A stretch of 64,000 nucleotides of DNA from Escherichia phage JSE. The position numbers and the translations under genes were made by a program. Position 1 is the first letter of the stretch; each line of letters starts with the position of its first letter. The stretch lies in the sequence record EU863408; one strand, written 5' to 3'. The notes under the pieces were generated by a model. That model saw nothing but the letters and a program-made list of their open reading frames with translations, was not told the DNA's origin and made no database searches. Below are positions 2,482-31,360 of this stretch, in pieces.

Positions 2482-2510
2482 AGTATAGGGGATCTCGCGA
2501 TCCCCGTCAA
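2482..2510 (-). promoter_or_regulatory. Sigma70-like early promoter cassette (TTGACG-17-TATACT) with palindromic GC-rich spacer GGGGATCGCGAGATCCC
   Basis: Read on minus strand; followed by conserved leader and GGAGAATCAAAT-ATG. Confidence 0.6.
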
Positions 2511-2514
2511 GCAT

Positions 2515-3063
2515 TTATTTAAATTTTTCGAGAGATTTCAACCACAGGCGGCCTGGTAGGTACTCTCCGGCAAACATGAAATTGTCATCTGGATAAGAAC
2601 GCAGCATATTCAAAATAAACTTCCGGCACTCTTCGTAATCTTTACGTTTAAGATAAATCACATTCTCGCCAGTACCGATCACACCTTTTCTGTATCCATG
2701 CTCTTTACGCACAGACCATTGTACAGTATCTTTTTTAACCCGAATCACAACAGGTTCCCAATACCCAGCGCATCCGGCTACACCACACGAACAGGTGAGG
2801 AAGTATTGACCTTTTGCTTTGTTTTCCTCCCACCCGATATTAACCGGATGCCATTCGTGAAACAAGGCTAAAGCATCGTGTGTCTCTTCGATCTGTTTAT
2901 TGTCAATTCTTACCGTAACCATCCATACAGGGATCTTATTTGTTGGTTCATCATCATAACATGAATCATCATCAATATGTTCTAATGTCATGTCAACATT
3001 AATTGATTTTGCGTGTTCCATGTGTCGTTGTGCTTTACGCTTACGATTCAATAATTTAGACAT
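2515..3063 (-). CDS. Hypothetical protein (183 aa, cysteine-containing CSCGVAGCAGYWEP segment)
   Basis: ORF with GAGGTG RBS before ATG at 3063; no recognisable family. Confidence 0.5.
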   Translation of the reverse strand: MSKLLNRKRKAQRHMEHAKSINVDMTLEHIDDDSCYDDEPTNKIPVWMVTVRIDNKQIEETHDALALFHEWHPVNIGWEENKAKGQYFLTCSCGVAGCAGYWEPVVIRVKKDTVQWSVRKEHGYRKGVIGTGENVIYLKRKDYEECRKFILNMLRSYPDDNFMFAGEYLPGRLWLKSLEKFK

Positions 3064-3075
3064 ATTCACCTCACA

Positions 3076-3612
3076 TTATAAACGAAATTGTACGCCATCA
3101 AAATGAGAACTTGCATTACAGCTATTATAGATAATAAATCCTGTATCTGGCGCTTGTACTACAAATTGACTTGCATTAACAGCGGCAACAGTAAAAATAC
3201 GATCCGTGAGACTATGTTTAATTTCTGTCCCAACTTCCAATGGGATGTACTCTTCCTCTTCGACCCCAACACCAAAACAGCCTTCTTCATGGTACGCCTG
3301 AATCTTTTTATCACAATTACACAGTTTAGCAAAATCAAGCGTATACAATTCACGAGAGTTGTCGGTATAAACCAACACAGATTGATTATGATAGCGAATC
3401 ACATACAGGTTATTATCTTCGTCAACGACACAAAAACTACGGATTTGTGTGCCTTCGCCTTTACTCCAGCAGATATTAACAACCGTTCCCATAATAAAGA
3501 AACTTTCTTTTGTACCAAAGCTAGCCAGTGTGCTAGCGTGCATTTTAACAACTACACCATCACCAATTTCTAACTTGCGAATTTTAATTTCTTTATTCAA
3601 TATACAAAACAT
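3076..3612 (-). CDS. Hypothetical protein (178 aa)
   Basis: ATG at 3612 downstream of TTGACA-16-TATAAT promoter and AGAGAGGA RBS. Confidence 0.5.
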   Translation of the reverse strand: MFCILNKEIKIRKLEIGDGVVVKMHASTLASFGTKESFFIMGTVVNICWSKGEGTQIRSFCVVDEDNNLYVIRYHNQSVLVYTDNSRELYTLDFAKLCNCDKKIQAYHEEGCFGVGVEEEEYIPLEVGTEIKHSLTDRIFTVAAVNASQFVVQAPDTGFIIYNSCNASSHFDGVQFRL

Positions 3613-3643
3613 AATGTTGTCCTCTCTTGTTTTCGATGTGAGC

Positions 3644-3671
3644 ATTATACACGAGCTAATCCGGTTGTCAA
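3644..3671 (-). promoter_or_regulatory. Sigma70-like early promoter TTGACA-16-TATAAT
   Basis: Minus-strand read of 3644..3671; directly downstream of terminator hairpin. Confidence 0.6.
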
Positions 3672-3682
3672 CACCCCAAAAC

Positions 3683-3710
3683 GAAAAAGCCGACCCTTTC
3701 GGATCGACTA
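3683..3710 (-). terminator. Rho-independent terminator after nrdD (CGAUCC-GAAA-GGGUCG stem-loop followed by U run)
   Basis: GNRA-loop hairpin with G-U wobble followed by GCUUUUUCGUUUU on minus strand. Confidence 0.6.
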
Positions 3711-3714
3711 AAAA

Positions 3715-4707
3715 TTACATGTGCTTAACGCGGTTTACCATCTCGGAGTGTTTCCCGTGGTTAAATGGACGCAGATCAACAGATCCAAGATATCCACTAA
3801 CGCGACGGATAACATTCATCTTTTCCAGATTGTCATTTCCGCAATCAGGGCAAACAAAACCAGACTCGGTCGCTCTCATTTCCTTATTAGATCCGCATAC
3901 ATGACATACATCAGAAGGAGTATTAACACCGAAGTAGTGCAATTTATCCATTGCATAGTCTACTACAGTTTCAAGACCTTTCAGGTTGTTTTTCATGTCT
4001 GGGAACTCAACATAAGAGATCATGCCACCGGACGCCAGCCAGTGATAATCTTTCTCAAAGTCGATTTTCTCAAATGGTGTGACTTTCCGGTCTACGTCAA
4101 GGTGGAATGAGTTGGTGTACCAGTCTTTATCGGTAGCACCCTTAACAATACCAAATTGCTCTCTGTCCAGTCGATTAAATCGATAGCAAAGGCTCTCGGC
4201 TGGCGTACCGTAAAGACTAAACCCAAGTCCGGTTTCGTCCTTCCATTTTTCAGTATAATGACGCAAGATCTTAAGAATATGTTTACCGTATCGCTGCGCA
4301 TCTTCCGAATCAAACGGATGAACACCAAACAGGACGCTCAATACCTCATGTAAACCAATATATCCAAGAGAGATACTAGCGCGACCATCTTTCAGCACTT
4401 CCAAAATTTCATCGTTTTGATGAATACGGAAAAATGCACCTTCTGTATACAGTACAGGAGCAACATTGGCTTTAGCCCCTTTTAAAGCGTCTACGCGACT
4501 CATAAGCGCATCAAAGCAAATAGGCATACGATTAGCTAGCTCTTGTTCGAATAGCTCAATTCTGCGCATTACAGACGCTTTACCAGCACGACGCGCGGCA
4601 ATAAGAGCAATACGCGGAAGATTCAGAGTCACAACACCCAAGTTATTACGTCCGTCTAATACTTCCTCGCCTTTCTCGTTATGCCACACACCCAGGAAAC
4701 TTCTACA
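3715..4707 (-). CDS. nrdD: Anaerobic ribonucleoside-triphosphate reductase NrdD, exon 2 (C-terminal half)
   Basis: Begins CRSFLGVW...; C-terminal RRVSGYLGS glycyl-radical motif and CHVCG...CPDCG zinc site; ORF-track ATG at 4708-4710 reinterpreted as intron 3' end. Confidence 0.8.
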   Translation of the reverse strand, partial: CRSFLGVWHNEKGEEVLDGRNNLGVVTLNLPRIALIAARRAGKASVMRRIELFEQELANRMPICFDALMSRVDALKGAKANVAPVLYTEGAFFRIHQNDEILEVLKDGRASISLGYIGLHEVLSVLFGVHPFDSEDAQRYGKHILKILRHYTEKWKDETGLGFSLYGTPAESLCYRFNRLDREQFGIVKGATDKDWYTNSFHLDVDRKVTPFEKIDFEKDYHWLASGGMISYVEFPDMKNNLKGLETVVDYAMDKLHYFGVNTPSDVCHVCGSNKEMRATESGFVCPDCGNDNLEKMNVIRRVSGYLGSVDLRPFNHGKHSEMVNRVKHM

Positions 4708-6381: not shown

Positions 6382-6876
6382 TTATTTTACCAGTTCTGCT
6401 AATTCTTTTTCTTTAGCTTCTAGTTCAGCTTTAAGCTGTTTAATCTCTTGTCGCTTCTTATTAGCGGCTTCCTGCTTACTATTTCGGATAACCTGATCTA
6501 GATACAACTCCCAATCCTGAATATTTTTGATAATGTATCCGTCAACATTAATTGGTCGGAGATTCAGTACAGCTTCCAGTTTAGTTGCAAAAACTTTAAT
6601 TGCTGGGGTGAAGTATTCATATTCGTTATCTTCAAACCAATAACCTAGACTTGCATTCTCAATACGAAGATGAAGTTTAAGATCAAGGTCTTTATCATCG
6701 GTATATAGGTCTTTTACACACCCCATAGAATTAACAACAACTTTAAAACGAATTTTATCTACACCACCAAAAACATCTTCAAGAATATCAGCAATTGAGC
6801 TATTAGCGCAAGATTGGTCGCTGAATGCGTCAAGGTTTTCTTTAGTTACAGTATACCAAACATCTTGTACCCACAT
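6382..6876 (-). CDS. Paralog family A protein (164 aa) with C-terminal coiled-coil
   Basis: ATG 6876 after promoter cassette; IRFKVVVNSMGCV and RPINVDGYIIKN modules. Confidence 0.5.
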   Translation of the reverse strand: MWVQDVWYTVTKENLDAFSDQSCANSSIADILEDVFGGVDKIRFKVVVNSMGCVKDLYTDDKDLDLKLHLRIENASLGYWFEDNEYEYFTPAIKVFATKLEAVLNLRPINVDGYIIKNIQDWELYLDQVIRNSKQEAANKKRQEIKQLKAELEAKEKELAELVK

Positions 6877-6906
6877 AATATAATCCTCTCGTTGTTAAGT
6901 GGGAGT

Positions 6907-6934
6907 ATTATAGCATACTCCCTTCGCATGTCAA
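6907..6934 (-). promoter_or_regulatory. Early promoter cassette TTGACA-16-TATAAT; -10 sits in loop of GGGAGTA/TACTCCC palindrome
   Basis: Minus-strand read; leader ...GAGAGGATTATATT-ATG. Confidence 0.6.
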
Positions 6935-8109
6935 GCACTAACTTTTTTCTTTACTGCTTTCACCTTCTGGCGAATTACTCGAATCTCTTCGATCTCTTTT
7001 TCAGTCTCTTTAACAATTTCTTTGCGATTCTGAATATCTGTATCGAGATTATCATCAAGTTTAGGCAGCATGTCAATCAAGAACTTTTTAAAGTCTTTCA
7101 GGTTTCGGATAACAGCACCTTCACCCATTACCGCCACACCAACACCATCCGGCAGATCACCAAACAGTTTAACCAGTTCAGACAGATGATCATGGTCTTC
7201 TAATGCTTCCTCCGGTTCAGATGGCAGTTCAACAAAGTTATAACGTTCATCATTGCTGATCAAGTGATACCAGCAAAGCCCGAAAGATTTCGGTGTATAT
7301 TCTACACCATCAATTTCAACCGCGTCAACACTTCCATAATCATCTACTTTAGTTACCTTAAATCCTTGTCCCAGCTTTTGAACAATTTCAACAACATGAC
7401 TTGATACAGTTTCAGCGGTAAACCAATATGGCAAATTATGCTGATTTGGCTTGTAGCGTTCACCTACTTTAAATCTCTGACCATCCGCTTGCATAGCATG
7501 AAATTGTTGTTTCGTGATTTCCGCGAAGTATTCAAATTCGCCACCATCAAACACACAAGCCCATTGATCACAAAAACGATCTGCCTTAACAGTTTCACCT
7601 TTCGCGGTGATCATGGTAGCTGATCCGTGCAATTCTTCTTCAACTAAAAAGCCATATTCGACAAAATCAACAAGTTTCATAGCTTCTTTGTGATCTGGAT
7701 CATGCTCTCCCCAGAATCGCTTAAATTCTTGCAAACCTTCTGGTGTAAACGAATAACATTTACCTTTTTCAAAGTAAGTCGGCATTGCATCCTCTTTCTT
7801 GTTCATCGCTTCGTATGCCTCTTTTGAGATGCGTTTAAAGTATTTACGCTCATCGTGCATAATCATAGTAGCCCAATAATAAACGATATCCTCAGCGGAA
7901 TAAACTACATCTCCAGCTTCAATAGTAATAACATGACCGTTGTCATCTTTTTCTAATACTTTAAAGCCCTTTTCGACGATTTCAGCAACCCGAATATGAC
8001 CACGGCGCGAAGCATCGGTCAGAATAATTGAATAGCGAGAAAAGTCTAGAAACTCATCTTTACCACCTTCACGGAATGCATAGTAATGACCTTCAAAGAA
8101 TTTAGCCAT
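6931..8109 (-). CDS. Paralog family A protein (392 aa) with duplicated GFKV...ERKYFKRI module
   Basis: ATG 8109; motifs EKGFKVLEKDDNGHV...ERKYFKRISK and GQGFKVTKVDDYGSV. Confidence 0.55.
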   Translation of the reverse strand: MAKFFEGHYYAFREGGKDEFLDFSRYSIILTDASRRGHIRVAEIVEKGFKVLEKDDNGHVITIEAGDVVYSAEDIVYYWATMIMHDERKYFKRISKEAYEAMNKKEDAMPTYFEKGKCYSFTPEGLQEFKRFWGEHDPDHKEAMKLVDFVEYGFLVEEELHGSATMITAKGETVKADRFCDQWACVFDGGEFEYFAEITKQQFHAMQADGQRFKVGERYKPNQHNLPYWFTAETVSSHVVEIVQKLGQGFKVTKVDDYGSVDAVEIDGVEYTPKSFGLCWYHLISNDERYNFVELPSEPEEALEDHDHLSELVKLFGDLPDGVGVAVMGEGAVIRNLKDFKKFLIDMLPKLDDNLDTDIQNRKEIVKETEKEIEEIRVIRQKVKAVKKKVSA

Positions 8110-8140
8110 AATATAATCCTCTCGTTGTTTAAATGGGAGT

Positions 8141-8169
8141 ATCTTACTACTCCCGTTTCATCATGTCAA
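8141..8169 (-). promoter_or_regulatory. Early promoter cassette TTGACA-17-TAAGAT within GGGAGTA/TACTCCC palindrome
   Basis: Minus-strand read. Confidence 0.6.
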
Positions 8170-8172
8170 GCG

Positions 8173-8733
8173 TTAAATGACTTTTTGGATCTCTTTCAGT
8201 TCAGCTACTTTATCGGCGCTGAATTTAGCGTAGGTATCATGTCGAATAATTTCACTTTCAAGAAAGGTTTCCAGCCGAGATCTATTTTCAATAAGGAACT
8301 CTTTCAGGTCTTCCGCGTTCTTGATAAAGATTTTATTGTCAGTAATGTCATCTTCAATCGCAAAGGAGATAGAGCGAACTTTACCAAACAAGTTAATCAG
8401 ATCTTCCAGCGATTCTTCTTTCTTAACTGGTTTCATTTCTTCAAACTGCTTTTTAGTGATGCGTTTAAAGTATTTGCGCTCGCTTGCATCAATCATGATT
8501 GACGCACCCTCATAATCATGAGTTTCTACCAAATACACTTTACCCATAACATTAACCGTAAGAACTTTAAAGCCCCTGTGAAGCACACCATACAGGAACT
8601 TGTTATGTTGTGGATAGCGTTTAACAAATTCCTCTGCGGACTCAGCATTACGGAAAGTGTAATAACGACCTCGTTCAAAAACAGCATCATTTGAAGACTT
8701 AGCTGGATACAATTTATACGTTTTCTGTACCAT
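8173..8733 (-). CDS. Paralog family A protein (186 aa)
   Basis: ATG 8733 with GAGGATT RBS; HRGFKVLTVNVMGKV...ERKYFKRITK module. Confidence 0.55.
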   Translation of the reverse strand: MVQKTYKLYPAKSSNDAVFERGRYYTFRNAESAEEFVKRYPQHNKFLYGVLHRGFKVLTVNVMGKVYLVETHDYEGASIMIDASERKYFKRITKKQFEEMKPVKKEESLEDLINLFGKVRSISFAIEDDITDNKIFIKNAEDLKEFLIENRSRLETFLESEIIRHDTYAKFSADKVAELKEIQKVI

Positions 8734-8747
8734 AATATAATCCTCTA

Positions 8748-9020
8748 TCATTTCACTAATTGAACAGCACGAAACAGAATGCGGTCACACGGAAGAAGCA
8801 TAAATTCCCAACGCGGATCAAAGTCTTTAGCGGTATATGTTTTCCCATCAACCGAGATTTCACTTACATAACCAATAGGTGACACTTTAAGAACAGTAAA
8901 CCCATTCTTGATGACTTCGTAGGTATCTTTCAATCCTTCGTAGTCATCCTCTAGGAAGTCTTTACGTGCTTGCTCAGATTTAAAAACATAGGCCACACCG
9001 GATTTAAACATCTTACGCAT
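8748..9020 (-). CDS. Paralog family A protein, short (90 aa, single beta module)
   Basis: ATG 9020 after GGAGAATCAAC leader; KNGFTVLKVSPIGYVSEISVDGKTY module; ORF-track start 9080 is a TTG inside the -35 box. Confidence 0.5.
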   Translation of the reverse strand: MRKMFKSGVAYVFKSEQARKDFLEDDYEGLKDTYEVIKNGFTVLKVSPIGYVSEISVDGKTYTAKDFDPRWEFMLLPCDRILFRAVQLVK

Positions 9021-9051
9021 TGTTGATTCTCCTTCTTGATTAGATGGGAGT

Positions 9052-9080
9052 ATTTTACTACTCCCATTTCTTATTGTCAA
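9052..9080 (-). promoter_or_regulatory. Early promoter cassette TTGACA-17-TAAAAT within GGGAGTA/TACTCCC palindrome
   Basis: Minus-strand read. Confidence 0.6.
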
Positions 9081-9083
9081 CTA

Positions 9084-9557
9084 CTATCTTAATCTTTGTA
9101 TAAATTGTTTCTTATACTTCTTCGTGATCTCTTCTCTTGTATCAGCGTCACAGTAATCGAAACCTTCTGCGTCCATAATAGCAACCATCTCCGCGCGTGT
9201 CAAGCGTGAAAATCGTTTTACTTTATCAACAGCATATTGAGGATGTAAATGATTGTTGGTGTAGTCTCCTTTGATGTAATTAACATAGTTTGTAGCCCAA
9301 ACAACGAAATCAGCACCTAAAGCACCAACACCAAACCGTTTAAAGTCTCCGGTCAACGATCCTTCTAGGCGGTTGCAACACGAATGAAGCAATCCCCTTA
9401 CACGGCCTTGCCCTTTCCCATCTAGATCGTGGTCGTGGTCAAGATGGTTTTTGCTCATATCCTCAAAAAGTGGCAATTGACAAAGGGGGCAAATACCCCC
9501 CTGTTTTTCGAATAGTTCTTGTTTGTACTCTTTAGCACTCTTAGCAGTCAGTAACAT
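9084..9557 (-). CDS. 49: Endonuclease VII (Holliday junction resolvase, 157 aa)
   Basis: HLDHDHDLDGKGQGRVRGLLHSCCN and C-terminal ...FSRLTRAEM match T4 gp49 as recalled; length identical to T4 endo VII; GGAGGGTGA RBS. Confidence 0.9.
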   Translation of the reverse strand: MLLTAKSAKEYKQELFEKQGGICPLCQLPLFEDMSKNHLDHDHDLDGKGQGRVRGLLHSCCNRLEGSLTGDFKRFGVGALGADFVVWATNYVNYIKGDYTNNHLHPQYAVDKVKRFSRLTRAEMVAIMDAEGFDYCDADTREEITKKYKKQFIQRLR

Positions 9558-11933: not shown

Positions 11934-12242
11934 TTATTTCACGTTAACGCCGTCATCAATCCAGCCGACGCTATTTGGTTTAACAGTTTTACCATAGGAT
12001 GCATACTTAATCAAGCATGGTTTAACATCATTATCAAATCTTCCTAAACGTACTCCCAAATCAGGAATATCCATGTATGCGGCTTTATATCCCCATGTAC
12101 CGTATTCAGAATCAATCTCAACCGGACGGCCTTTAAAAGCATACACTACACCGTGACGGTCAACGATAACATAGCGATAGCCAGCCGGAAGATACACAGT
12201 TTCGCCGTAAACTTTAACTGGAGTAGCAGAAGAGATAAACAT
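11934..12242 (-). CDS. Hypothetical protein (~102 aa)
   Basis: ATG 12242 with GAGGATTATATT leader downstream of promoter cassette. Confidence 0.45.
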   Translation of the reverse strand: MFISSATPVKVYGETVYLPAGYRYVIVDRHGVVYAFKGRPVEIDSEYGTWGYKAAYMDIPDLGVRLGRFDNDVKPCLIKYASYGKTVKPNSVGWIDDGVNVK

Positions 12243-12277
12243 AATATAATCCTCACATCGTTCATTTGATGCGGTCA

Positions 12278-12305
12278 TTATATGATAACCGCATTTTCAT
12301 GTCAA
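12278..12305 (-). promoter_or_regulatory. Early promoter cassette TTGACA-16-TATAAT inside GCGGT/ACCGC palindrome, AT-rich UP-like region upstream
   Basis: Minus-strand read. Confidence 0.6.
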
Positions 12306-12312
12306 CAGTTTT

Positions 12313-12622
12313 TTAAAAATCTTCTTCCGGTTTATATCGACCGTCATCGACTGGTTTTGGACTGAATCCTTTATGCGTGCGCGGCTTCGCTTCCGGTTTA
12401 CCAGCAATCATCAAACCAAAACATTTCAGCCCCTTATAACACATAACATTATCAACCACGGTCCACGTTATAGGCCATACGATTGCAGCAATACAAAATG
12501 CTCCTGTATCGACCTCTTTGGTGTCCTTGTCGAATCTGGCGTACAAGCAGAATACTAGATACGAGATCATTGCACCAGTAGTCCAGATATAAAGCACATT
12601 AACAATATCTTGTGTTGTCACA
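12313..12622 (-). CDS. Small membrane protein (~100 aa), probable GTG start
   Basis: AAGGAGGA RBS 6 nt before GTG at 12622; hydrophobic segments; ORF-track start 12735 overlaps upstream gene. Confidence 0.4.
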
Positions 12623-12631: not shown

Positions 12632-12910
12632 TTACATGTCTTGCAGTGCATAAAAGCATTTTTCTTCATAGTCATAGAAAATGTCAAAGTATGCTTTTTC
12701 CACATACTCGCCATTAATCCAAGCGGCAGTAACAATCAGAGTGGTCCAGTTAGATCCGCTCTCAACGGTAAAGGTTTTAATACCCAGCTTCGCTGCCAAG
12801 TCGAACGCAAACCGGACGCAACCACGGCAGGAAGTGATATTGGAAGTTTTGATTTTAAAGCCACCGCGAGTTTTAGAAATTTCTACTTTAGCGAAAGACA
12901 GGTTGCTCAT
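12632..12910 (-). CDS. Hypothetical protein (92 aa)
   Basis: ATG 12910 after promoter cassette and conserved leader. Confidence 0.45.
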   Translation of the reverse strand: MSNLSFAKVEISKTRGGFKIKTSNITSCRGCVRFAFDLAAKLGIKTFTVESGSNWTTLIVTAAWINGEYVEKAYFDIFYDYEEKCFYALQDM

Positions 12911-12952
12911 TTTGATTCTCCTTAAGAAAGTGTGTTTCGTTTTGATGTGTGT

Positions 12953-12981
12953 AGTATAGGGGATACGTGATCCCCTGTCAA
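12953..12981 (-). promoter_or_regulatory. Early promoter cassette TTGACA-17-TATACT with palindromic spacer GGGGATCACGTATCCCC
   Basis: Minus-strand read; leader ACACACATCAAAACGAAACACAC...GGAGAATCAAA-ATG. Confidence 0.6.
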
Positions 12982-12989
12982 CAAATTTT

Positions 12990-14737: not shown

Positions 14738-14999
14738 TACATGCTTTTAATGCATCAGTCGCGGTGTCATAGCGAGTATTATCATAGCACCAGTAACCAT
14801 CTGTCAACTGATAAATCAATCCGTCCTTTTTAGCTTCGATGAAAGACAATTCTTTGAAAGTTTCTACTTTCTTTGCTGATACTCCACGGTCACGGCGTTT
14901 ATAGAGTTTAGCTAAAATGCGTTCAGCTTGTTCCTCTTTATTGCCAGACAGATCCCAGATGATGTTTCTTATATGCTTGATTAATTGTTCAGTGGTCAT
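14709..14999 (-). CDS. Hypothetical protein (96 aa)
   Basis: ATG 14999 after promoter and GGAGAATCAAAG leader. Confidence 0.45.
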   Translation of the reverse strand: MTTEQLIKHIRNIIWDLSGNKEEQAERILAKLYKRRDRGVSAKKVETFKELSFIEAKKDGLIYQLTDGYWCYDNTRYDTATDALKACNDHLRKTTI

Positions 15000-15056: not shown

Positions 15057-15061
15057 CACCC

Positions 15062-21201: not shown

Positions 21202-21287
21202 TAATTTCTCCTGTTTGGCTTAACTTTCTGATTCCATAATATAGCCCTATCACCAGAAAGTCAAGCATTATTTTTAACCAATTTCCA

Positions 21288-21710
21288 TTATTGGTCTACC
21301 TTCAAAACAACCGCCGACATTTTACCCGCCAGTCGTTTTGGATTCTCTATAATCATTCGGCAGCATAGACCGTGATATGGCTTACCCTCTTCGATTAGAT
21401 CTACTGTCATCCCGATCCACATGTTACCGTCAGTAATTTCTAATCGATTCGGTCGGTCTTCCATTTTCAGGAAGTCGAAGATCTCCGGCAAACGAGTTTC
21501 TATCTTATTGAATAGTTCCATTGTCTTATGTTCATCGATATGACGATCGGTTAGACGGTCGATCATATGCGGACTAAAGCGAATGAAAATATACTCACCG
21601 TAACCATCATTCAAGCACTTTTCTTTGATCTGCGCATTGGTTTTGCGCATTTCGGTTTCGAAGAATCTACGCAGCTTACTACGGCGAACATGTACGTTAA
21701 TTGTTTCCAT
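21288..21710 (-). CDS. regB: Endoribonuclease RegB
   Basis: INVHVRRSKLRRFFETE, RLEITDGNMWIGMTV and CRMIIENPKRLAGK match T4 RegB as recalled; ATG 21710 with AAAGGATAA RBS. Confidence 0.8.
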   Translation of the reverse strand: METINVHVRRSKLRRFFETEMRKTNAQIKEKCLNDGYGEYIFIRFSPHMIDRLTDRHIDEHKTMELFNKIETRLPEIFDFLKMEDRPNRLEITDGNMWIGMTVDLIEEGKPYHGLCCRMIIENPKRLAGKMSAVVLKVDQ

Positions 21711-21714: not shown

Positions 21715-22050
21715 TTATCCTTTCTTAAACAAATTGCGAATCCAGTATACAAACGGGATTTCTTTAAACTTGAATTTCTCTATAGTTAATTCTTTAGTAG
21801 CAAGATGAATACCATAAGCATCATGTGTAACTATATGCCATTTTCTATAGCCCAAATGTGAACAACCGTCTGGATCTAGGTTAATAAGAGTTTCTCGCTC
21901 ACTAGGATTATTTTTCCACAATTTTGTAATAGGATCGCACATAATTCGACCTAGCGTACCATGAATAATCTCACAACGGTAAAGTTTTCCAGCAGTGAGA
22001 TAGGCGCACCCGTCATAGTCGGTATAAACAAACACTTCTTTAACACTCAT
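21715..22050 (-). CDS. Paralog family B protein (DGCSHL motif, 111 aa)
   Basis: ATG 22050 after promoter cassette; DPDGCSHLGYRKWHI. Confidence 0.45.
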   Translation of the reverse strand: MSVKEVFVYTDYDGCAYLTAGKLYRCEIIHGTLGRIMCDPITKLWKNNPSERETLINLDPDGCSHLGYRKWHIVTHDAYGIHLATKELTIEKFKFKEIPFVYWIRNLFKKG

Positions 22051-22081
22051 TTTAATACTCCTTTGTTGTTTCGATGGGGGT

Positions 22082-22110
22082 ATATTACTACCCCCGATCA
22101 TGTGTGTCAA
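22082..22110 (-). promoter_or_regulatory. Early promoter cassette TTGACA-17-TAATAT inside GGGGGTA/TACCCCC palindrome
   Basis: Minus-strand read. Confidence 0.6.
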
Positions 22111-22372
22111 CTACTTTTTCAAGATTTTTTTTGATTGCATTCCAAAGACCTTTATTTCCAGGTTGTTTTGGTTCTTCGATCAGTGTCCATGTTCGACCGT
22201 CTAAGTGTGCACAATTTTTAAGGCAAATAAAAATCTGGTGTCCCTTATCAGCACGGATATAACCACTATTCGCAAATCTTTCATGTGGTGTATATTCATA
22301 CAGTGTATTAGGTGTAATATACTTGCGGTTACTATAAGGTGTCATCACATACATCATGGTACTAACTCCCAA
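22088..22372 (-). CDS. Paralog family B protein (94 aa)
   Basis: NCAHLDGRTWTL motif. Confidence 0.4.
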   Translation of the reverse strand: MGVSTMMYVMTPYSNRKYITPNTLYEYTPHERFANSGYIRADKGHQIFICLKNCAHLDGRTWTLIEEPKQPGNKGLWNAIKKNLEKVVDTHDRG

Positions 22373-27997: not shown

Positions 27998-28324
27998 TTA
28001 GAAAGAAACAGTTTTCAAGAAATCCAGATTTTTAGTACCGAAAACAGAAAAGTAGTGTTTTCCTTTTTCGGTTTTAGAGAAAGCGATTGTCTTCTCTACA
28101 TGGTGACGGAAGCCAGACAGACGATCACCCAGGTCAAGGCGGCAAGCGTAAGTAGTGCCGTTTTCGAAAGTAACCTCGATTTGAGTTTTGTCATATTCGC
28201 TTTCATAGGCTTTTGCTGCCGCTTCCTGTGCTTTACGCTCGAAGTCTTCGAAGTGGAATACTTCGTTTGCGTTAGCGAATACAGAAGATTCAGAGAAGAT
28301 AACTTTAACAGATACTGGTTTCAT
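27998..28324 (-). CDS. Hypothetical protein (108 aa)
   Basis: ATG 28324 after promoter cassette and conserved leader. Confidence 0.45.
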   Translation of the reverse strand: MKPVSVKVIFSESSVFANANEVFHFEDFERKAQEAAAKAYESEYDKTQIEVTFENGTTYACRLDLGDRLSGFRHHVEKTIAFSKTEKGKHYFSVFGTKNLDFLKTVSF

Positions 28325-28367
28325 TTTGATACTCCTTAGTAGTTCGTGTTTCGTTTCGATGGGTGTA

Positions 28368-28395
28368 TTATGCTATACACCCTCTCTCGTGTCAA
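28368..28395 (-). promoter_or_regulatory. Early promoter cassette TTGACA-16-CATAAT inside GGGTGTAT/ATACACCC palindrome
   Basis: Minus-strand read; leader ACACCCATCGAAACGAAACAC. Confidence 0.6.
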
Positions 28396-28402
28396 CAACT
28401 TT

Positions 28403-28591
28403 TTAGTCTTTTTTCATAATTTCTAGAGCAGTTTCTACAGCACCTTTCCAACCTTCCCACATAATGGACATAGTAAGGAAGTTAAAGCACCCGCAGGAAT
28501 CAACCTTTTTAGAGATAAACCATTCTACAAACGCTTCGCTCATACCATGCTCTTTAGCGGATTCGCGTAATTGTTCAATTTGGTCTTCCAT
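28403..28591 (-). CDS. Hypothetical small protein (62 aa)
   Basis: ORF. Confidence 0.35.
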   Translation of the reverse strand: MEDQIEQLRESAKEHGMSEAFVEWFISKKVDSCGCFNFLTMSIMWEGWKGAVETALEIMKKD

Positions 28592-28817: not shown

Positions 28818-29039
28818 TTATAGTTGATCAGCGATGTAAGCGTGACAAGCGCGGAGTTTCATTAATGCACTACCTTTCACTTCGCCTACGATGTTCATAA
28901 CTTCTAAGCGGTCGGATGGATTCATCTTAGAGCACCAGATCTGGTTAGCCAATTCCAGTTTACTCATATTTGGTTCCATCTCAAACAGTTCACGCTCAAA
29001 GTCGATAATTTCTTTTGCTGCGTCTTTAAAGTTAATCAT
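28818..29039 (-). CDS. Hypothetical small protein (73 aa)
   Basis: ATG 29039 after promoter cassette. Confidence 0.4.
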   Translation of the reverse strand: MINFKDAAKEIIDFERELFEMEPNMSKLELANQIWCSKMNPSDRLEVMNIVGEVKGSALMKLRACHAYIADQL

Positions 29040-29068
29040 TTTGATTCTCCCGTTTCGTTGATGGTTGT

Positions 29069-29097
29069 ATTGTAGGGGAGTTATCCTCCCCTGTCAA
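29069..29097 (-). promoter_or_regulatory. Early promoter cassette TTGACA-17-TACAAT with palindromic spacer GGGGAGGATAACTCCCC
   Basis: Minus-strand read. Confidence 0.6.
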
Positions 29098-29105
29098 CAC
29101 TTTTA

Positions 29106-29291
29106 TCAGAAATATGCAATATAGTTTGCCAGTCCGACAGAGTCATCATTCGGCATTGCTTTTACTGCCAGTTCAAACCCTGCTTCAACTTTCTGTTTAG
29201 CGGATTCTTCGTTATAACCCCAGATTACCAGAATAGCTACTACGTTTTCTTTGCTTACTGCTTTCAGTGCTTTAGTGATGCGACGTGCCAT
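29106..29291 (-). CDS. Hypothetical small protein (61 aa)
   Basis: ATG 29291 after promoter cassette and conserved leader. Confidence 0.4.
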   Translation of the reverse strand: MARRITKALKAVSKENVVAILVIWGYNEESAKQKVEAGFELAVKAMPNDDSVGLANYIAYF

Positions 29292-29337
29292 AATTTGATT
29301 CTCCGTTTAAGAAAGTGTGTTTCGTTTCGATGGGTGT

Positions 29338-29366
29338 ATTATGCTATAGGCCGGATCTGGTGTCAA
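29338..29366 (-). promoter_or_regulatory. Early promoter cassette TTGACA-17-CATAAT with A/T-rich upstream region
   Basis: Minus-strand read; leader ACACCCATCGAAACGAAACACAC. Confidence 0.6.
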
Positions 29367-29395
29367 CAACTTTTTTTAAAAAAAATTTTTAGGCA

Positions 29396-29421
29396 ATAAA
29401 AAAGCCACTCCGAAGAGTGGC
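29396..29421 (-). terminator. Rho-independent terminator (GCCACUC-UUCG-GAGUGGC + UUUUUU)
   Basis: 7 bp perfect stem, UUCG loop, U6 tail on minus strand. Confidence 0.75.
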
Positions 29422-29570
29422 TTATAGGGAAGGTAGCGAATCTTCCTTGTCTCCAACCTGCTAGCGGCCTAGCAAGTGAATGCTTTAGCGTACCGGATCG
29501 CCCATACGCTGCAATAAATGCGGCTAGGTGACGTCCAAATCATTCTAACCGCGCTGTCTTTAGTTCACTA
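29422..29570 (-). ncRNA. Candidate structured non-coding RNA / long structured 3' UTR
   Basis: 149 nt with no ORF of >=60 aa between a stop codon and a strong terminator; at least four predicted hairpins (GCGGUUAG/CUAGCCGC, AGCGUA/UACGCU, UGCUAG/CUAGCA, GGAAG/CUUCC). Confidence 0.3.
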
Positions 29571-30204: not shown

Positions 30205-30292
30205 CAGATCATAAGAAAACCCAACGCAATAAGAATTGCATCAAATTTAGTGAACTCAGGTCCACCTATCAACATCATTCGTTCCTGTTCAT

Positions 30293-30490
30293 TCATAGAT
30301 CACAGAGCCATCTTACAGCACCACATAAAGCGATCAAAAGACTAGGTATAAACGAGATTACAACAAGTTTACAAAAATCATCTAAGGTAACACCGGAATA
30401 GCTACCTACTGTAACAACACCGATCATCAGACACAGAAAGAAAACAAATGCAATCAGAAACAAAGTATTGCTAAACAGTTTAGTGATCAT
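30293..30490 (-). CDS. Small membrane protein (65 aa)
   Basis: Hydrophobic ORF. Confidence 0.4.
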   Translation of the reverse strand: MITKLFSNTLFLIAFVFFLCLMIGVVTVGSYSGVTLDDFCKLVVISFIPSLLIALCGAVRWLCDL

Positions 30491-30684
30491 TAGACACCCC
30501 CACGACGATCAATTTCAAAAACTTTTTTACCATCAACGAAGCATGTCACAACTGCCTCGTTGACTTCCGCAAATTGTTGTGTCACCCACTTAAGGTCAGA
30601 GCGAAACAATGTTCTATTAATAACAAATGTTTTACCGCTCTTATCCTTACCCATAAATTTTGCTTTAACCATATCCAATTCCAT
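30490..30684 (-). CDS. Hypothetical small protein (64 aa)
   Basis: ORF. Confidence 0.35.
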   Translation of the reverse strand: MELDMVKAKFMGKDKSGKTFVINRTLFRSDLKWVTQQFAEVNEAVVTCFVDGKKVFEIDRRGGV

Positions 30685-30693
30685 ATTATCACC

Positions 30694-30852
30694 TTATTTG
30701 CTAATCGCTAAACCCAATCCGAAGAGAGCACCCGATGCTACAGTATACCCGAAAGTTTCAAATGCAGTAAAGATATCTAAGCCACCAGCTAACAGAGTTG
30801 CAGTAAACAGAGTACCAGCTACGAACATAAAAGTTTTACCGATAAATTTCAT
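30694..30852 (-). CDS. Small membrane protein (52 aa), not in ORF track
   Basis: ATG 30852 directly after promoter cassette and GGAGAATCAAA leader; translation MKFIGKTFMFVAGTLFTATLLAGGLDIFTAFETFGYTVASGALFGLGLAISK. Confidence 0.45.
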   Translation of the reverse strand: MKFIGKTFMFVAGTLFTATLLAGGLDIFTAFETFGYTVASGALFGLGLAISK

Positions 30853-30883
30853 TTTGATTCTCCTTTCGTTTGTTTGTGGGGGT

Positions 30884-30912
30884 ATCTTACTACCCCCGTT
30901 TCATGTTGTCAA
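30884..30912 (-). promoter_or_regulatory. Early promoter cassette TTGACA-17-TAAGAT inside GGGGGTA/TACCCCC palindrome
   Basis: Minus-strand read. Confidence 0.6.
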
Positions 30913-30918
30913 CTGTTT

Positions 30919-31293
30919 TTAAGAAAATTTTACTTCGTCTACAATGTCTTTCATGACATTGATTTCCATTCCGGTCAGAACACGTTGGAACATGTGCTGC
31001 ACATACGCTTTCAGGTATTCATTTGATGGCTTGCTATCGAAAGTCTTTTTAGTGTAGTAGTCATCACCGAAAGCTACTGTAATTACATTTTCGTCGTCGT
31101 TCCAAGCGATATAAGCAAATTTGCCGTTATCCCAGAAGCGAGCACTAATTGCTACTTTTGTTGAATCGAATCCTACTTCGCTGTGAGATTCAAGAACTAC
31201 TTGCGTACCAGTTTCTTTATGAATGTAGTAGCGGGATACTAAGTCAAAGTTACGGGTGTAGTGACATTCGAATTTATCTTTAAACATCATCAT
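30919..31293 (-). CDS. Hypothetical protein (~125 aa)
   Basis: ATG-ATG-ATG at 31293 after conserved leader; ORF-track start 31362 runs through promoter. Confidence 0.45.
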   Translation of the reverse strand: MMMFKDKFECHYTRNFDLVSRYYIHKETGTQVVLESHSEVGFDSTKVAISARFWDNGKFAYIAWNDDENVITVAFGDDYYTKKTFDSKPSNEYLKAYVQHMFQRVLTGMEINVMKDIVDEVKFS

Positions 31294-31330
31294 TTTGATT
31301 CTCCTAAGTGTGTTTCGTTTCGATATGTGC

Positions 31331-31360
31331 ATTATGCTATAGTCGTTTATGGTTGTCAAC
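31331..31360 (-). promoter_or_regulatory. Early promoter TTGACA-18-CATAAT
   Basis: Minus-strand read; leader GCACATATCGAAACGAAACACAC. Confidence 0.55.

What the first reader, a model, noticed from the sequence alone, without database searches (positions are those of the whole stretch)
2482..31360. At least 16 near-identical promoter/stem-loop/leader cassettes (PeSL-like) punctuate the early region
Seen: before many minus-strand genes the same ~70-90 nt unit recurs. It has a TTGACA -35, a 16-18 nt spacer, a -10 such as CATAAT/TATAAT/TAAGAT, a leader of the form ACACCCATCGAAACGAAACACAC(TTTCTTAA), and a fixed Shine-Dalgarno/start GGAGAATCAAA-ATG (or the variant GAGGATTATATT-ATG). In most copies a GC-clamped inverted repeat either brackets the -10 (GGGAGTA...TACTCCC, GGGGGTA...TACCCCC, GGGTGTAT...ATACACCC) or fills the spacer (GGGGATCACGTATCCCC, GGGGAGGATAACTCCCC). 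Conservation is at nucleotide level and independent of the downstream reading frame. Established: promoter-early stem-loop (PeSL) cassettes of this kind were described for the RB49/phi1 group of T4-type phages and proposed to mediate modular gene shuffling. Inference: this genome probably belongs to or near that group, and the palindromes could act as terminators or processing sites for read-through transcripts.
Basis: partly seen in the sequence, partly recalled or inferred. Interest (0 to 1): 0.5.

Follow-up and report, generated by a model that had tools for sequence, protein, structure and literature searches.

The report
Known early promoter cassettes (PeSLs) of RB49-like phage
The repeated units are real, but they are the already published "PeSL" early promoter/stem-loop/ribosome-site cassettes of RB49/phi1-type coliphages, found here in a close relative, so the finding is a correct re-discovery and not something new.

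Summary
The window is a Krischvirus (RB49/Phi1-like T4-type coliphage), 96-97% identical to published genomes. I confirm 17 minus-strand cassettes between 2437 and 31396, plus an 18th on the plus strand at 45681-45781. Each has a near-consensus sigma-70 promoter (TTGACA, 16-17 nt spacer, a -10 hexamer), an AT-rich upstream tract, a stem-loop, a G-poor A/C-rich leader and a fixed ribosome site. Strong promoter matches number 28 on the minus strand against 1.8 expected. All 17 cassettes sit at orthologous positions, almost base for base, in RB49, Phi1, GEC-3S, Whisky, JK32 and G2248. They are therefore the PeSLs of Arbiol et al. 2010, whose promoter and terminator activities were shown by reporter assay. 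"Near-identical" is overstated: mean pairwise identity is 51% and the maximum 77%, so the cassettes are mosaics of shared blocks. Across genomes the -35 and -10 hexamers almost never vary, and stems keep pairing through compensatory changes. Support for PeSL-mediated shuffling in this window is mixed. There are two clear cases: a hypervariable two-gene module bounded by two cassettes, and a cassette swap at a g38 deletion. Most indels, however, are homing-endonuclease genes. One addition: the fixed GGAGAATCAAA matches the RegB/S1 cleavage consensus at 10 of 11 positions.

The parts
2437..2520 (-). PeSL c2510, class I (hairpin in spacer). -35 TTGACG 2510-2505; hairpin GGGGATCGCGAGATCCCC 2505-2488; -10 TATACT 2487-2482; SD GGAGAATCAAA 2451-2441; ATG 2439-2437.
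3610..3709 (-). PeSL c3671, class III. Upstream terminator hairpin 3709-3688 followed by a T-run; -35 3671-3666; -10 TATAAT 3649-3644; SD GAGAGGA; ATG 3612-3610.
6874..6944 (-). PeSL c6934, class II (stem brackets the -10). -35 6934-6929, which contains the TGA stop codon of the upstream gene at 6933-6931; hairpin GGGAGTATGCTATAATACTCCC 6922-6901; SD GAGGATTATATT; ATG 6876-6874.
8107..8179 (-). PeSL c8169, class II. Hairpin GGGAGTAGTAAGATACTCCC 8154-8135; SD GAGGATTATATT; ATG 8109-8107.
9018..9090 (-). PeSL c9080, class II. Hairpin 9067-9044; SD GGAGAATCAAC; ATG 9020-9018.
12240..12315 (-). PeSL c12305, class II. Perfect TTGACA-17-TATAAT; hairpin ATGCGGTTATCATATAATGACCGCAT 12294-12269; SD GAGGATTATATT; ATG 12242-12240.
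12908..12991 (-). PeSL c12981, class I. Hairpin AGGGGATCACGTATCCCCT 12976-12958 in the spacer; long leader ACACACATCAAAACGAAACACACTTTCTTAA; SD GGAGAATCAAA; ATG 12910-12908. Same design as the tested Phi1 PeSL211/210.
14997..15094 (-). PeSL c15056, class III. Terminator hairpin 15094-15073 followed by a T-run; TTGACA-16-TATAAT; SD GGAGAATCAAA; ATG 14999-14997. In phage G2248 its promoter half is replaced by a class I promoter where g38 is absent.
16151..16245 (-). PeSL c16221, class IV. An 18-bp long-range stem spans 16236-16160 and encloses the whole core promoter; its 3' arm includes the SD. -35 16221-16216; -10 CATAAT 16198-16193; ATG 16153-16151.
17404..17505 (-). PeSL c17465, class III. 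12-bp terminator hairpin 17505-17478 followed by a T-run; TTGACA-17-CATAAT; SD GGAGAATCAAA; ATG 17406-17404.
21199..21274 (-). PeSL c21264, class IV and weaker. TTGACT-17-TATTAT. A 15-bp stem spans 21266-21218; its 5' arm covers the -35 and its 3' arm lies in the leader. SD GGAGAAATTA; ATG 21201-21199 (vs.1 homologue, immediately downstream of regB).
22048..22120 (-). PeSL c22110, class II. Hairpin GGGGGTAGTAATATACCCCC 22095-22076; SD GGAGTATTAAA; ATG 22050-22048. Drives the ORF095 homologue and regB.
28322..28405 (-). PeSL c28395, class II. Hairpin GGGTGTATAGCATAATACACCC 28382-28361; long leader; SD GGAGTATCAAA; ATG 28324-28322.
29037..29107 (-). PeSL c29097, class I. Hairpin AGGGGAGGATAACTCCCCT 29092-29074 in the spacer; SD GGAGAATCAAA; ATG 29039-29037.
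29289..29423 (-). PeSL c29366, class III with a more distant terminator. Hairpin 29423-29402 followed by a T-run; TTGACA-17-CATAAT; full leader ACACCCATCGAAACGAAACACACTTTCTTAA; ATG 29291-29289.
30850..30922 (-). PeSL c30912, class II. Hairpin GGGGGTAGTAAGATACCCCC 30897-30878; SD GGAGAATCAAA; ATG 30852-30850.
31291..31396 (-). PeSL c31359, class III. Terminator hairpin 31396-31376 followed by a T-run; TTGACA-17-CATAAT; SD GGAGAATCAAA; ATG 31293-31291.
45681..45781 (+). Terminator hairpin 45681-45708; TTGACA 45722-45727; TATAAT 45744-45749; leader ACACACATCTAAACAAC; SD GGAGGATAAATT; ATG 45779-45781. It follows baseplate gene 8. The orthologous site in GEC-3S is annotated as terminator plus promoter.
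21288..21710 (-). regB endoribonuclease gene, with its own TIR GGATAATAAAATG. Its product is the probable trans-acting partner of the GGAGAATCAAA module.
   Evidence: PMC3014915, PMC1702504
2515..3612 (-). Two-gene hypervariable module (homologues of RB49 ORF054/055) lying exactly between cassettes c3671 and c2510. It is the clearest PeSL-bounded exchange in this window.

Best explanation
These are PeSLs (promoter-early stem-loops), the composite regulatory cassettes that punctuate the early, hyperplastic regions of RB49/phi1-type (Krischvirus) T4-like phages. Each cassette is a compact unit of about 70-135 nt packed between two genes. It contains four parts:
1. An AT-rich tract and a near-consensus sigma-70 promoter, used by unmodified host RNA polymerase right after infection. 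The predicted start is the A of 'CATC', 7 nt after the -10.
2. A stem-loop that exists only in RNA read through from upstream. It ends or attenuates the upstream transcript, or protects its 3' end.
3. A short (23-40 nt), G-poor, A/C-rich and therefore unstructured leader.
4. A standard ribosome-binding module.

Four hairpin placements occur here:
- In the spacer, where the U/A-rich -10 follows the hairpin in place of a U-tract (3 copies).
- Bracketing the -10 (7 copies).
- A canonical terminator hairpin plus T-run upstream of the -35 (5 copies, plus the plus-strand one).
- A long stem enclosing the whole core promoter (2 copies).

I infer that the commonest ribosome module, GGAGAATCAAA, is also a RegB/S1 endoribonuclease target. 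A cassette would then impose 'early-only' expression on whatever ORF follows it.

Because the cassettes share sequence blocks, they sometimes serve as crossover points for swapping or deleting the genes they flank. In this region that is a minor source of variation compared with homing endonucleases and ordinary allelic recombination.

Status of each step:
- Shown here: presence, excess over chance, orthology to published PeSLs, purifying selection on the hexamers and SD, and compensatory stem variation.
- Shown in the literature: promoter and terminator activity of class I PeSLs, and 5'-end mapping in RB49.
- Inferred: terminator function of class II and IV stems, RegB targeting, and the recombination role.
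For: Identity:
- The window is 96-97% identical to Krischvirus genomes.
- All 17 cassettes are orthologous and nearly identical in RB49, Phi1, GEC-3S, Whisky, JK32 and G2248.
- GEC-3S already annotates promoters and terminators at these sites.
- Phi1's experimentally tested PeSLs have the same design as window c12981 (PMC2839356 sections 13 and 16).

Promoter:
- 28 strong sites against 1.8 expected, on the coding strand only.
- Across 7 genomes, variable columns are 1/102 in the -35, 1/102 in the -10 and 6/236 in SD..ATG. The leader varies at 7.3%, the spacer at 17.5% and the background at 12.5%.
- The upstream 20 nt are 74% AT against 60% background.
- The RB49 early consensus allows T or C at -12, shows C-rich -3..-1, and agrees with mapped 5' ends (PMC1524935).

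Stem-loops:
- 15 of 37 strong hairpins lie in 6.4% of the sequence.
- In class II, the 7 inner pairs are paired in 7 of 7 paralogues, with 2-3 pair types at six of the seven positions. Pairing collapses beyond pair 7.
- Class III stems have G.U pairs on the sense strand only, GAAA/UUCG/GAGA tetraloops and T-runs.
- Read-through RNAs fold better than shuffles, with z from -1.6 to -6.0.

Leader: predicted 5'UTRs all start with A, and the leader before the SD is 10% G against 23% background.

RegB:
- GGAGAATCAAA matches GGAGRAYARAA at 10 of 11 positions (PMC1702504).
- All 9 exact copies are in promoter cassettes.
- regB is present with the RB49-type GGAU TIR, which is reported to be cleaved in vivo (PMC3014915).

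Recombination:
- Block 2515-3612 diverges 16-64% from all relatives, while its flanks diverge 0-4%. The boundaries fall 8 nt upstream of the -35 of c2510 and inside c3671.
- The G2248 g38 deletion junction lies between the -10 and the leader of c15056, and a class I promoter is substituted there.
Against: - No expression data exist for this genome.
- Class I and II hairpins lack a canonical U-tract (0-4 T in the 8 nt after the stem). The terminator scan flags only class III.
- The GGAGAATCAAA module has C at position 8, where T4 RegB sites strongly prefer A. RB49 RegB is also diverged from the T4 enzyme (PMC1702504, PMC3014915).
- Shuffling is weakly supported in this window. Of about 11 indels among 7 genomes, six are homing-endonuclease genes or an intron. 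Of 5 non-HEG indels, only 1 has a breakpoint inside a cassette and 1 lies about 120 nt away.
- Nearest-relative switches occur every ~450 nt. 14 of 80 are near cassettes, against a rough expectation of ~10, which is not a clear enrichment.
- Shared exact runs between cassettes are short; only 5 of 153 pairs reach 20 nt.
Confidence: 0.9

Rival explanations
1. The cassettes are just strong early promoters with a standard ribosome site. They resemble one another because of shared functional constraint and old local duplication. They play no special part in gene shuffling, and variation in this region comes from homing endonucleases and ordinary homologous recombination.
For: - The conserved positions are mostly the functional ones: -35, -10 and SD.
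- Mean pairwise identity is only 51%, and few pairs share an exact run of 20 nt or more.
- Six of about 11 indels are HEGs or an intron.
- Three of 5 non-HEG indels have no cassette at their ends.
- Mosaic switches are not clearly enriched at cassettes.
Against: - Leader blocks such as ATCGAAACGAAACACACTTTCTTAA are shared between cassettes that have different promoter and hairpin classes, giving a mosaic pattern.
- A hypervariable module is bounded exactly by two cassettes.
- The G2248 junction lies inside a cassette.
- Published phi1/RB49 comparisons and inverse-PCR mini-circles support shuffling (PMC2839356).
Confidence: 0.3
2. The class I and II palindromes act on DNA, not RNA. They would be cruciform or hairpin structures, or binding sites for a phage protein, that either tune or shut off the promoter they overlap or nick the DNA to start recombination (for example through endonuclease VII, which is encoded at 9084-9572).
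For: - Class I and II stems are perfect palindromes fixed in register with the -10 or the spacer, and they lack U-tracts.
- For c9080 the antisense strand pairs at least as well as the sense strand.
- Arbiol et al. themselves speculate that GGGG...CCCC could be a target for a recombination protein (PMC2839356, Discussion).
Against: - Arm sequences differ between copies (GGGAGTA, GGGGGTA, GGGTGTAT, GCGGTTAT, GGGGATC, GGGGAG) while pairing is kept. This argues for structure, not a single recognition sequence.
- 7-bp stems with 4-6 nt loops extrude poorly as cruciforms (general knowledge).
- A class I stem-loop placed between a promoter and lacZ reduced expression like rrnB T1 (PMC2839356).
- Ortholog changes give G.U on the sense strand (window c12305; GEC-3S copy of c9080), not A.C.
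Confidence: 0.15
3. The hairpins are mainly RNA stability or translation devices rather than terminators. They would protect 3' ends after processing. In the long-stem type they would hide the ribosome site in read-through RNA, so that only transcripts started at the cassette's own promoter are translated.
For: - The 18-bp stem of c16221 includes the SD in its 3' arm, and its 5' arm lies upstream of the transcription start (dG -33.1, z -5.99).
- Weaker pairings between the U-rich upstream tract and the SD are predicted in several other cassettes.
- T4 uses the same logic at genes e, soc and I-TevI (PMC3014915, section 29).
- Class II stems lack U-tracts.
Against: - Only one cassette has a convincing SD-occluding stem.
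- U-rich:purine-rich pairings may be compositional.
- Class III elements are textbook intrinsic terminators.
- There is published terminator-like activity for a class I stem (PMC2839356).
Confidence: 0.25

Closest known systems
PeSLs (promoter-early stem-loops) of coliphages RB49 and phi1 (Arbiol et al. 2010, PMC2839356; Comeau et al. 2014, PMC4122927)
   Same: Everything that defines them: TTGACA-N16/17-TATAAT-like promoter, AT-rich upstream tract, Gn-loop-Cn stem-loops at variable positions relative to the promoter, SD plus ATG at the 3' end, and intergenic location upstream of small ORFans in hyperplastic regions. The 17 copies are positional orthologues of those in RB49 and Phi1.
   Different: Nothing essential. 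My additions are:
- A four-class census for this stretch, including two long stems that enclose the whole promoter.
- Quantified constraint across 7 genomes.
- The match of the SD module to the RegB/S1 site, which neither PeSL paper mentions (0 occurrences of 'RegB').
- In this region, shuffling at PeSLs is outnumbered by HEG insertions.
T4 early promoters and PeSL-like elements at the T-even internal-protein loci
   Same: Strong early promoters upstream of small non-essential genes, with nearby stem-loops, proposed as linkers for module exchange.
   Different: T4 early promoters have a GTTTAC-type -35 and extended upstream elements, with weaker AT-rich stems. The cassettes here are near-perfect sigma-70 consensus with GC-clamped stems (PMC2839356 Discussion; PMC1524935).
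RegB/S1 endoribonuclease target sites in T4 early mRNAs (consensus GGAGRAYARAA; Durand et al. 2006, PMC1702504)
   Same: GGAG within the Shine-Dalgarno sequence of early genes, followed by an A-rich 7-mer in a single-stranded context. A regB gene is present in the same genome.
   Different: Position 8 is C instead of the preferred A. Cleavage at these particular sites was not tested. RB49-type RegB is diverged from the T4 enzyme.
Morons of lambdoid phages and integron gene cassettes
   Same: Small accessory ORFs that travel with their own promoter and terminator, and that insert between genes without disturbing neighbours.
   Different: There is no integrase or attC-like recombination site. 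The proposed exchange runs through homology between the regulatory cassettes themselves. Orientation is co-directional with the flanking genes.

Membership tests
PeSL (RB49/phi1 type) | Near-consensus sigma-70 promoter (TTGACA, ~17 nt spacer, TATAAT-like) | tested here: met
   16 of 17 cassettes have TTGAC[A/G] and one has TTGACT. Spacers are 16-17 nt. The -10 hexamers have at most 2 mismatches. The excess is 28 against 1.8 expected.
PeSL (RB49/phi1 type) | AT-rich tract upstream of the -35 | tested here: met
   The 20 nt upstream average 74% AT, against 60 +/- 10% background.
PeSL (RB49/phi1 type) | Stable stem-loop (often Gn...Cn) located upstream of, overlapping, between or just after the promoter hexamers | tested here: met
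   15 cassettes have a stem of 7 bp or more with at least 4 GC pairs. The other two have long 15-18 bp stems. Compensatory variation keeps the pairing.
PeSL (RB49/phi1 type) | Shine-Dalgarno sequence and start codon of the downstream gene at the 3' end | tested here: met
   All 17 have an SD followed by an ATG 29-46 nt after the -10.
PeSL (RB49/phi1 type) | Intergenic, in hyperplastic early regions, mostly upstream of small ORFs of unknown function | tested here: met
   ORF map and RB49/Phi1 annotation of the orthologous genes, mostly 'hypothetical protein' of 50-200 aa.
PeSL (RB49/phi1 type) | Homology or orthology to the described elements | tested here: met
   Column-by-column alignment with RB49 and Phi1. 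Design identity with Phi1 PeSL211/210, 206/205 and 193/191.
PeSL (RB49/phi1 type) | Promoter and terminator activity in vivo | not testable with these tools
   Published lacZ assays exist for Phi1 class I PeSLs (PMC2839356), and 5'-end mapping in RB49 is cited in PMC1524935. There is nothing for this genome, or for classes II and IV.
PeSL (RB49/phi1 type) | Association with insertion, deletion or replacement of flanked ORFs (modular shuffling) | tested here: inconclusive
   For: module 2515-3612 is bounded by c3671 and c2510, and the G2248 g38 junction lies inside c15056. Against: most indels are HEGs, 3 of 5 other indels are not at cassettes, and there is no clear enrichment of mosaic switches.
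PeSL (RB49/phi1 type) | Formation of excised PeSL mini-circles | not testable with these tools
   This needs inverse PCR on infected cells or virions.
Rho-independent (intrinsic) terminator | GC-rich hairpin immediately followed by a U-tract | tested here: met
   Met only for class III: 3709-3688, 15094-15073, 17505-17478, 29423-29402, 31396-31376 and 45681-45708(+).
Rho-independent (intrinsic) terminator | The same feature, for class I and II hairpins | tested here: not met
   There are 0-4 T in the 8 nt after the stem, and none is flagged by the terminator scan. In class I the -10 box (UAUAAU/UAUACU) follows the stem and may substitute for the U-tract. That is an inference, supported by the published assay on Phi1 PeSL211/210.
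RegB/S1 cleavage site | 11-nt single-stranded GGAGRAYARAA | tested here: inconclusive
   GGAGAATCAAA matches 10 of 11 positions (C at position 8). There are 9 exact copies, all in cassettes. The leader is G-poor and predicted to be open in promoter-initiated RNA. Cleavage was not tested.
RegB/S1 cleavage site | A cognate regB gene in the genome | tested here: met
   regB lies at 21288-21710 and is orthologous to RB49 regB. Its TIR GGATAATAAAATG is the RB49-type GGAU site (PMC3014915).

The most novel reading that the evidence does not exclude
Each PeSL may be a complete 'early-only expression plug'. Besides promoter and stem-loop, its fixed ribosome module GGAGAATCAAA would be a RegB/S1 cleavage site. 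In this window the exact 11-mer occurs only at promoter-proximal first genes. In some copies the stem also hides the ribosome site in read-through RNA (the 18-bp stem of c16221). Any ORF dropped behind a cassette would then automatically be transcribed at time zero, translated only from its own promoter's transcript, and silenced when RegB accumulates. The GAGGATTATATT variant would mark RegB-resistant genes. Neither PeSL paper links these cassettes to RegB.
Probability: 0.4. Interest if true: 0.4.

Novelty: already known. Interest (0 to 1): 0.15.

Why it matters
It matters little as a discovery. PeSLs were described in 2010 in RB49 and phi1, and this window is a 96-97% identical relative carrying the same elements at the same places.

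The value of the check is threefold:
1. It shows that the first-stage reader can recognise a real, functionally validated regulatory cassette family from raw sequence.
2. It gives an independent comparative test. The promoter hexamers and SD are under strong purifying selection, and the stems are kept by compensatory change.
3. It tempers the 'modular shuffling' claim for this region. Homing endonucleases and fine-scale allelic recombination dominate, with only two clear cassette-bounded events.

The possible link between the cassette's ribosome module and RegB is a modest, testable addition.

Tried and rejected
- Rfam at gathering thresholds over the whole window gave no hit, so the cassettes are not a curated RNA family.
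- The built-in loose promoter scan gave only 78 against 59.6 expected and does not discriminate. I replaced it with a stricter count and my own shuffles.
- Greedy BLAST chaining for indels dropped HSPs. I replaced it with a 7-genome MAFFT alignment.
- MAFFT alignment of the class II hairpins put the 3' arms in register but shifted the 5' arms. The count of structure pairs could therefore not be applied with a single structure line, so I counted pairs from loop-centred 26-mers instead.
- I looked for the G2248 junction hairpin CGGGGAGAAATCCCCG elsewhere in the window as a donor cassette. Only chance-level matches at up to 5 mismatches appeared.
- A copying-model segmentation, used to ask whether recombination switches concentrate at cassettes, showed no clear enrichment: 14 of 80 against a rough expectation of ~10.
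- Pfam gave nothing for the two proteins of the hypervariable module.
- Desplats et al. 2002 (PMC135041), which holds the RB49 5'-end mapping, is not in the library. I rely on the statement about it in PMC1524935.
- I rejected 36448 (TTGATA-16-TATAAT upstream of gene 4), 32236 and 33178 as family members. They lack the leader and stem-loop design.

Full report
WHAT THE WINDOW IS

Window 12000-32000 is 96-97% identical over 92-100% of its length to Krischvirus genomes: Whisky, RB49, Phi1, GEC-3S and many others, 97 records in all. Genes run on the minus strand up to about 36 kb and on the plus strand afterwards (GC skew; ORFs). By orthology with RB49 and Phi1, the minus-strand part is the early/hyperplastic region. 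It runs from nrdG/nrdD through 49, nrdC, dam, g38, rI, tk, vs, regB and dmd to 57B/57A, 1, 3, 2 and 4.

CHECKING THE OBSERVATION

A strand-specific scan required a -35 with at most 1 mismatch, a 16-18 nt spacer, a -10 with at most 2 mismatches, and an SD plus start within 80 nt followed by an ORF of at least 35 aa. It finds 17 minus-strand cassettes, with -35 hexamers starting at 2510, 3671, 6934, 8169, 9080, 12305, 12981, 15056, 16221, 17465, 21264, 22110, 28395, 29097, 29366, 30912 and 31359. This agrees with 'at least 16' and with the coordinates given.

The excess over chance is large:
- Sites at 10 of 12 or better: 28 on the minus strand of 1-37000, against 1.77 +/- 1.29 in dinucleotide shuffles.
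- Sites at 11 of 12 or better: 18 against 0.36.
- Plus strand: 1 against 1.64.

The quoted motifs are all present and all exceed chance.

Stem-loops are concentrated in the cassettes. Of the 37 hairpins on this strand with a stem of at least 7 bp and at least 4 GC pairs, 15 lie in the 6.4% of sequence the cassettes occupy.

An 18th cassette of the same design lies on the plus strand at 45681-45781, after baseplate gene 8. GEC-3S annotates a terminator and promoter at the orthologous site.

'Near-identical' is the one point that does not hold. In an 18-sequence alignment the mean column identity is 60%. Mean pairwise identity is 51% and the maximum 77%. The longest exact shared run is 32 nt, and only 5 of 153 pairs share 20 nt or more. 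The cassettes are mosaics. For example, c12981 (hairpin in spacer) and c29366 (upstream terminator) share the leader AAACGAAACACACTTTCTTAA, while c28395 and c29366 share TATAGCATAATACACCCATCGAAACGAAACAC.

ANATOMY

Four hairpin placements occur.
- Class I, in the spacer: c2510, c12981, c29097.
- Class II, bracketing the -10: c6934, c8169, c9080, c12305, c22110, c28395, c30912.
- Class III, a canonical terminator hairpin plus T-run upstream of the -35: c3671, c15056, c17465, c29366, c31359, and the plus-strand copy.
- Class IV, a long stem whose 5' arm covers the -35 or the upstream tract and whose 3' arm lies in the leader: c16221 (18 bp, dG -33.1, z -5.99) and c21264 (15 bp, z -3.6).

The 20 nt upstream of the -35 average 74% AT against 60% background. 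With the usual 7-nt distance from the -10, all 17 predicted transcripts start with A. They have 23-40 nt 5'UTRs whose pre-SD part is 51% A, 22% C and only 10% G, against 23% G in the background. The leaders should therefore be unstructured.

Packing is tight. At c6934 the TGA stop of the upstream gene lies inside the TTGACA hexamer.

COMPARATIVE EVIDENCE

I aligned window 1-47000 with the homologous ~47-49 kb of RB49, GEC-3S, Phi1, Whisky, JK32 and G2248. Every cassette is present at the orthologous position with only scattered substitutions.

Variable columns across the seven genomes:
- -35: 1/102
- -10: 1/102
- SD..ATG: 6/236
- Leader: 7.3%
- Spacer: 17.5%
- Rest of the region: 12.5%

So the hexamers and the ribosome site are under strong purifying selection, while the spacers are free to change.

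Stems behave as structures. In the seven class II paralogues the inner seven pairs are paired in 7 of 7 copies, with two or three different pair types at six of the seven positions (for example A-T, G-C and T-A at the same position). Beyond pair 7, pairing drops to 3-4 of 7. Class I stems keep pairing with different loops across orthologues: ACGT, GGTG and ACCG at c12981. Class III stems carry G.U pairs on the sense strand, GAAA/UUCG/GAGA tetraloops and T-runs. This places them firmly at the RNA level on the coding strand.

WHAT IT IS

These are the PeSLs of Arbiol et al. 2010 (PMC2839356). That paper describes about 51-52 such elements per genome in RB49 and phi1. They have sigma-70 consensus promoters, an AT-rich upstream region, stem-loops in five positions relative to the promoter, and the SD and start of the downstream gene. 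They lie mostly upstream of ORFans in hyperplastic regions.

The authors showed very strong promoter activity (PeSL206/205, ~13,000 Miller units). They also showed that the stem-loop of PeSL211/210 reduced read-through like rrnB T1.

I fetched those Phi1 elements. They are class I cassettes with essentially the design and leader of window c12981: TTGACAGGGGATCGGTGATCCCCTTATAATACACACATCAAAACGAAACACACTTTCTTAAACGGAGAATCAAAAATG.

Nolan et al. 2006 (PMC1524935) report for RB49 early promoters T or C at -12 and C-rich -3..-1, exactly as seen here (CATAAT/TATAAT, ACACCC). [quoted passage not shown] Comeau et al. 2014 (PMC4122927) extended PeSLs to other T4-like phages.

HOW IT MOST LIKELY WORKS

Host sigma-70 polymerase starts at each cassette immediately after infection. 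This is supported by constraint here and by assays in the literature.

The stem-loop exists only in RNA coming from upstream, because its 5' arm, or the whole stem, lies upstream of the cassette's own start site. Class III elements are standard intrinsic terminators.

Class I stems are followed directly by the U/A-rich -10 box, which may stand in for a U-tract. That is my inference, consistent with the published assay.

Class II stems have only 0-3 T in the following 8 nt. Their role may be attenuation, 3'-end protection or something else. This is the least secure step.

ADDED INFERENCE: THE RegB LINK

The commonest ribosome module, GGAGAATCAAA, matches the RegB/S1 target consensus GGAGRAYARAA of Durand et al. 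2006 (PMC1702504) at 10 of 11 positions, with C at position 8. All nine exact copies in the 64-kb window are at promoter-proximal first genes.

The phage encodes regB, whose own TIR is GGAUAAUAAAAUG. This is the RB49-type GGAU site reported to be cleaved in vivo (PMC3014915).

By contrast, the GAGGATTATATTATG module occurs 12 times on the minus strand, and 9 of those copies are at internal genes without a promoter.

If the inference is right, the cassette also programmes early shut-off of its first gene. Neither PeSL paper mentions RegB.

TESTING THE SHUFFLING CLAIM IN THIS WINDOW

Indels of 40 nt or more among the seven genomes are mostly mobile endonuclease genes:
- A 760-nt insertion in nrdD unique to the window (4708-5467).
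- HNH ORFs at 23282-23812 and 24960-25535.
- A 380-aa endonuclease-like ORF at 33901-35043.
- HNH insertions in other genomes at window positions 9877, 39402 and 39685.

Of five non-HEG events, three have no cassette at their ends: 13794, 26760 and 27605-27801. One lies about 120 nt from c17465. One is inside a cassette. In that last case G2248 lacks g38, and the junction falls between the -10 and the leader of c15056. A class I promoter (TTGACACGGGGAGAAATCCCCGTATAAT) replaces the terminator-plus-promoter half.

Separately, the two-gene block 2515-3612 is 16-64% divergent from all six relatives, while its flanks are 0-4% divergent. Its boundaries fall 8 nt upstream of the -35 of c2510 and within c3671. 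The best database allele is only 87.8% identical, and other Krischviruses carry 72-81% alleles. This is what a linker-mediated module exchange should look like, although diversifying selection on these two ORFs could contribute.

A copying-model segmentation shows that the window's nearest relative switches about every 450 nt. Of 80 switches, 14 lie near cassettes, against a rough expectation of ~10. My reading is that PeSL-bounded exchange happens, but it is a minority process in this region.

VERDICT

The element is already known, so interest is low. The RegB link and the SD-occluding stem are small, testable extensions.

Noticed in passing
window 4708-5467 (minus strand), within nrdD (3715-4710 and 5459-6337): nrdD is split by a 760-nt insertion that is absent from all six relatives compared. 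It carries a 173-aa HNH/I-HmuI-like ORF (4850-5371) and gives a sub-threshold group I intron match (RF00028, 27.4 bits, E 1e-4, core GAAGAUAUAGUCU). A 95.7% match exists in phage phiS. Copies at 66-70% identity sit in nrdD of unrelated Phapecoctavirus and ~86-kb Salmonella/Escherichia phages. This is probably a homing group I intron.
   Followed up: partly
window 23282-23812, 24960-25535, 33901-35043 (minus strand): Free-standing homing-endonuclease-type ORFs (HNH_3+NUMOD4; HNH_3+AP2; CapR/treble-clef/T5orf172) are present in only some Krischvirus genomes. They account for most of the indels in this region.
   Followed up: partly
window 2515-3612 (minus strand): A two-gene module (homologues of RB49 ORF054/055, no Pfam domains) diverges 16-64% from six relatives whose flanks are nearly identical. 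The best public allele is only 87.8% identical. The block is bounded exactly by cassettes c3671 and c2510.
   Followed up: partly
window 2441-2451, 12911-12921, 15001-15011, 16155-16165, 17408-17418, 29040-29050, 29294-29304, 30853-30863, 31294-31304 (minus strand): The fixed SD module GGAGAATCAAA matches the RegB/S1 cleavage consensus GGAGRAYARAA at 10 of 11 positions. It occurs only at promoter-proximal genes. regB (21288-21710) has the RB49-type GGAUAAUAAAA site in its own TIR.
   Followed up: partly
window 8731-8745, 11113-11127, 14696-14710, 20226-20240, 25533-25547, 27586-27600, 32817-32831, 35920-35934 (minus strand): A second fixed translation-initiation module, GAGGATTATATTATG (at most 2 mismatches), recurs at internal genes that have no promoter. 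It is therefore a general TIR type of this phage and not part of the promoter cassette. Its conservation beyond the SD (TTATATT) is unexplained; a translational repressor site is one possibility.
   Followed up: no
window -35 starts at 1912, 7076, 7328, 9203, 12687, 14807, 20594, 24554, 26413, 32236 (minus strand): About ten further strong sigma-70-like sites lie inside coding sequence, without the stem-loop or leader. Their hexamers vary at only 2 of 120 columns across seven genomes, against 12.5% background. They are probably real internal early promoters.
   Followed up: partly
window 16160-16236 (minus strand): An 18-bp stem pairs the AT-rich/-35 region of c16221 with its leader and SD (z -5.99). 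Read-through RNA would have an occluded ribosome site, while RNA started at the cassette's own promoter would not.
   Followed up: partly
window 6931-6934 (minus strand): The TGA stop codon of the upstream 392-aa gene lies inside the TTGACA -35 hexamer of cassette c6934, an extreme case of packing.
   Followed up: yes
L006 (phage G2248) 16990-17090, corresponding to window 15074-15933: G2248 lacks the g38 adhesin gene at this locus. At the junction, a different (class I) promoter is fused to the leader of cassette c15056.
   Followed up: partly
window 33896-33876, 25575-25548, 23853-23830, 15913-15898, 6373-6354 (minus strand): Terminator-type hairpins with no adjacent promoter. Several have GAAA tetraloops and closely resemble the class III cassette hairpins (AAGCC...GGCTT).
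   Followed up: no
window 1-36000 versus L001-L006: The window is a fine-grained mosaic of its relatives. The closest genome changes about 80 times in 36 kb, which indicates pervasive homologous recombination within the genus.
   Followed up: partly
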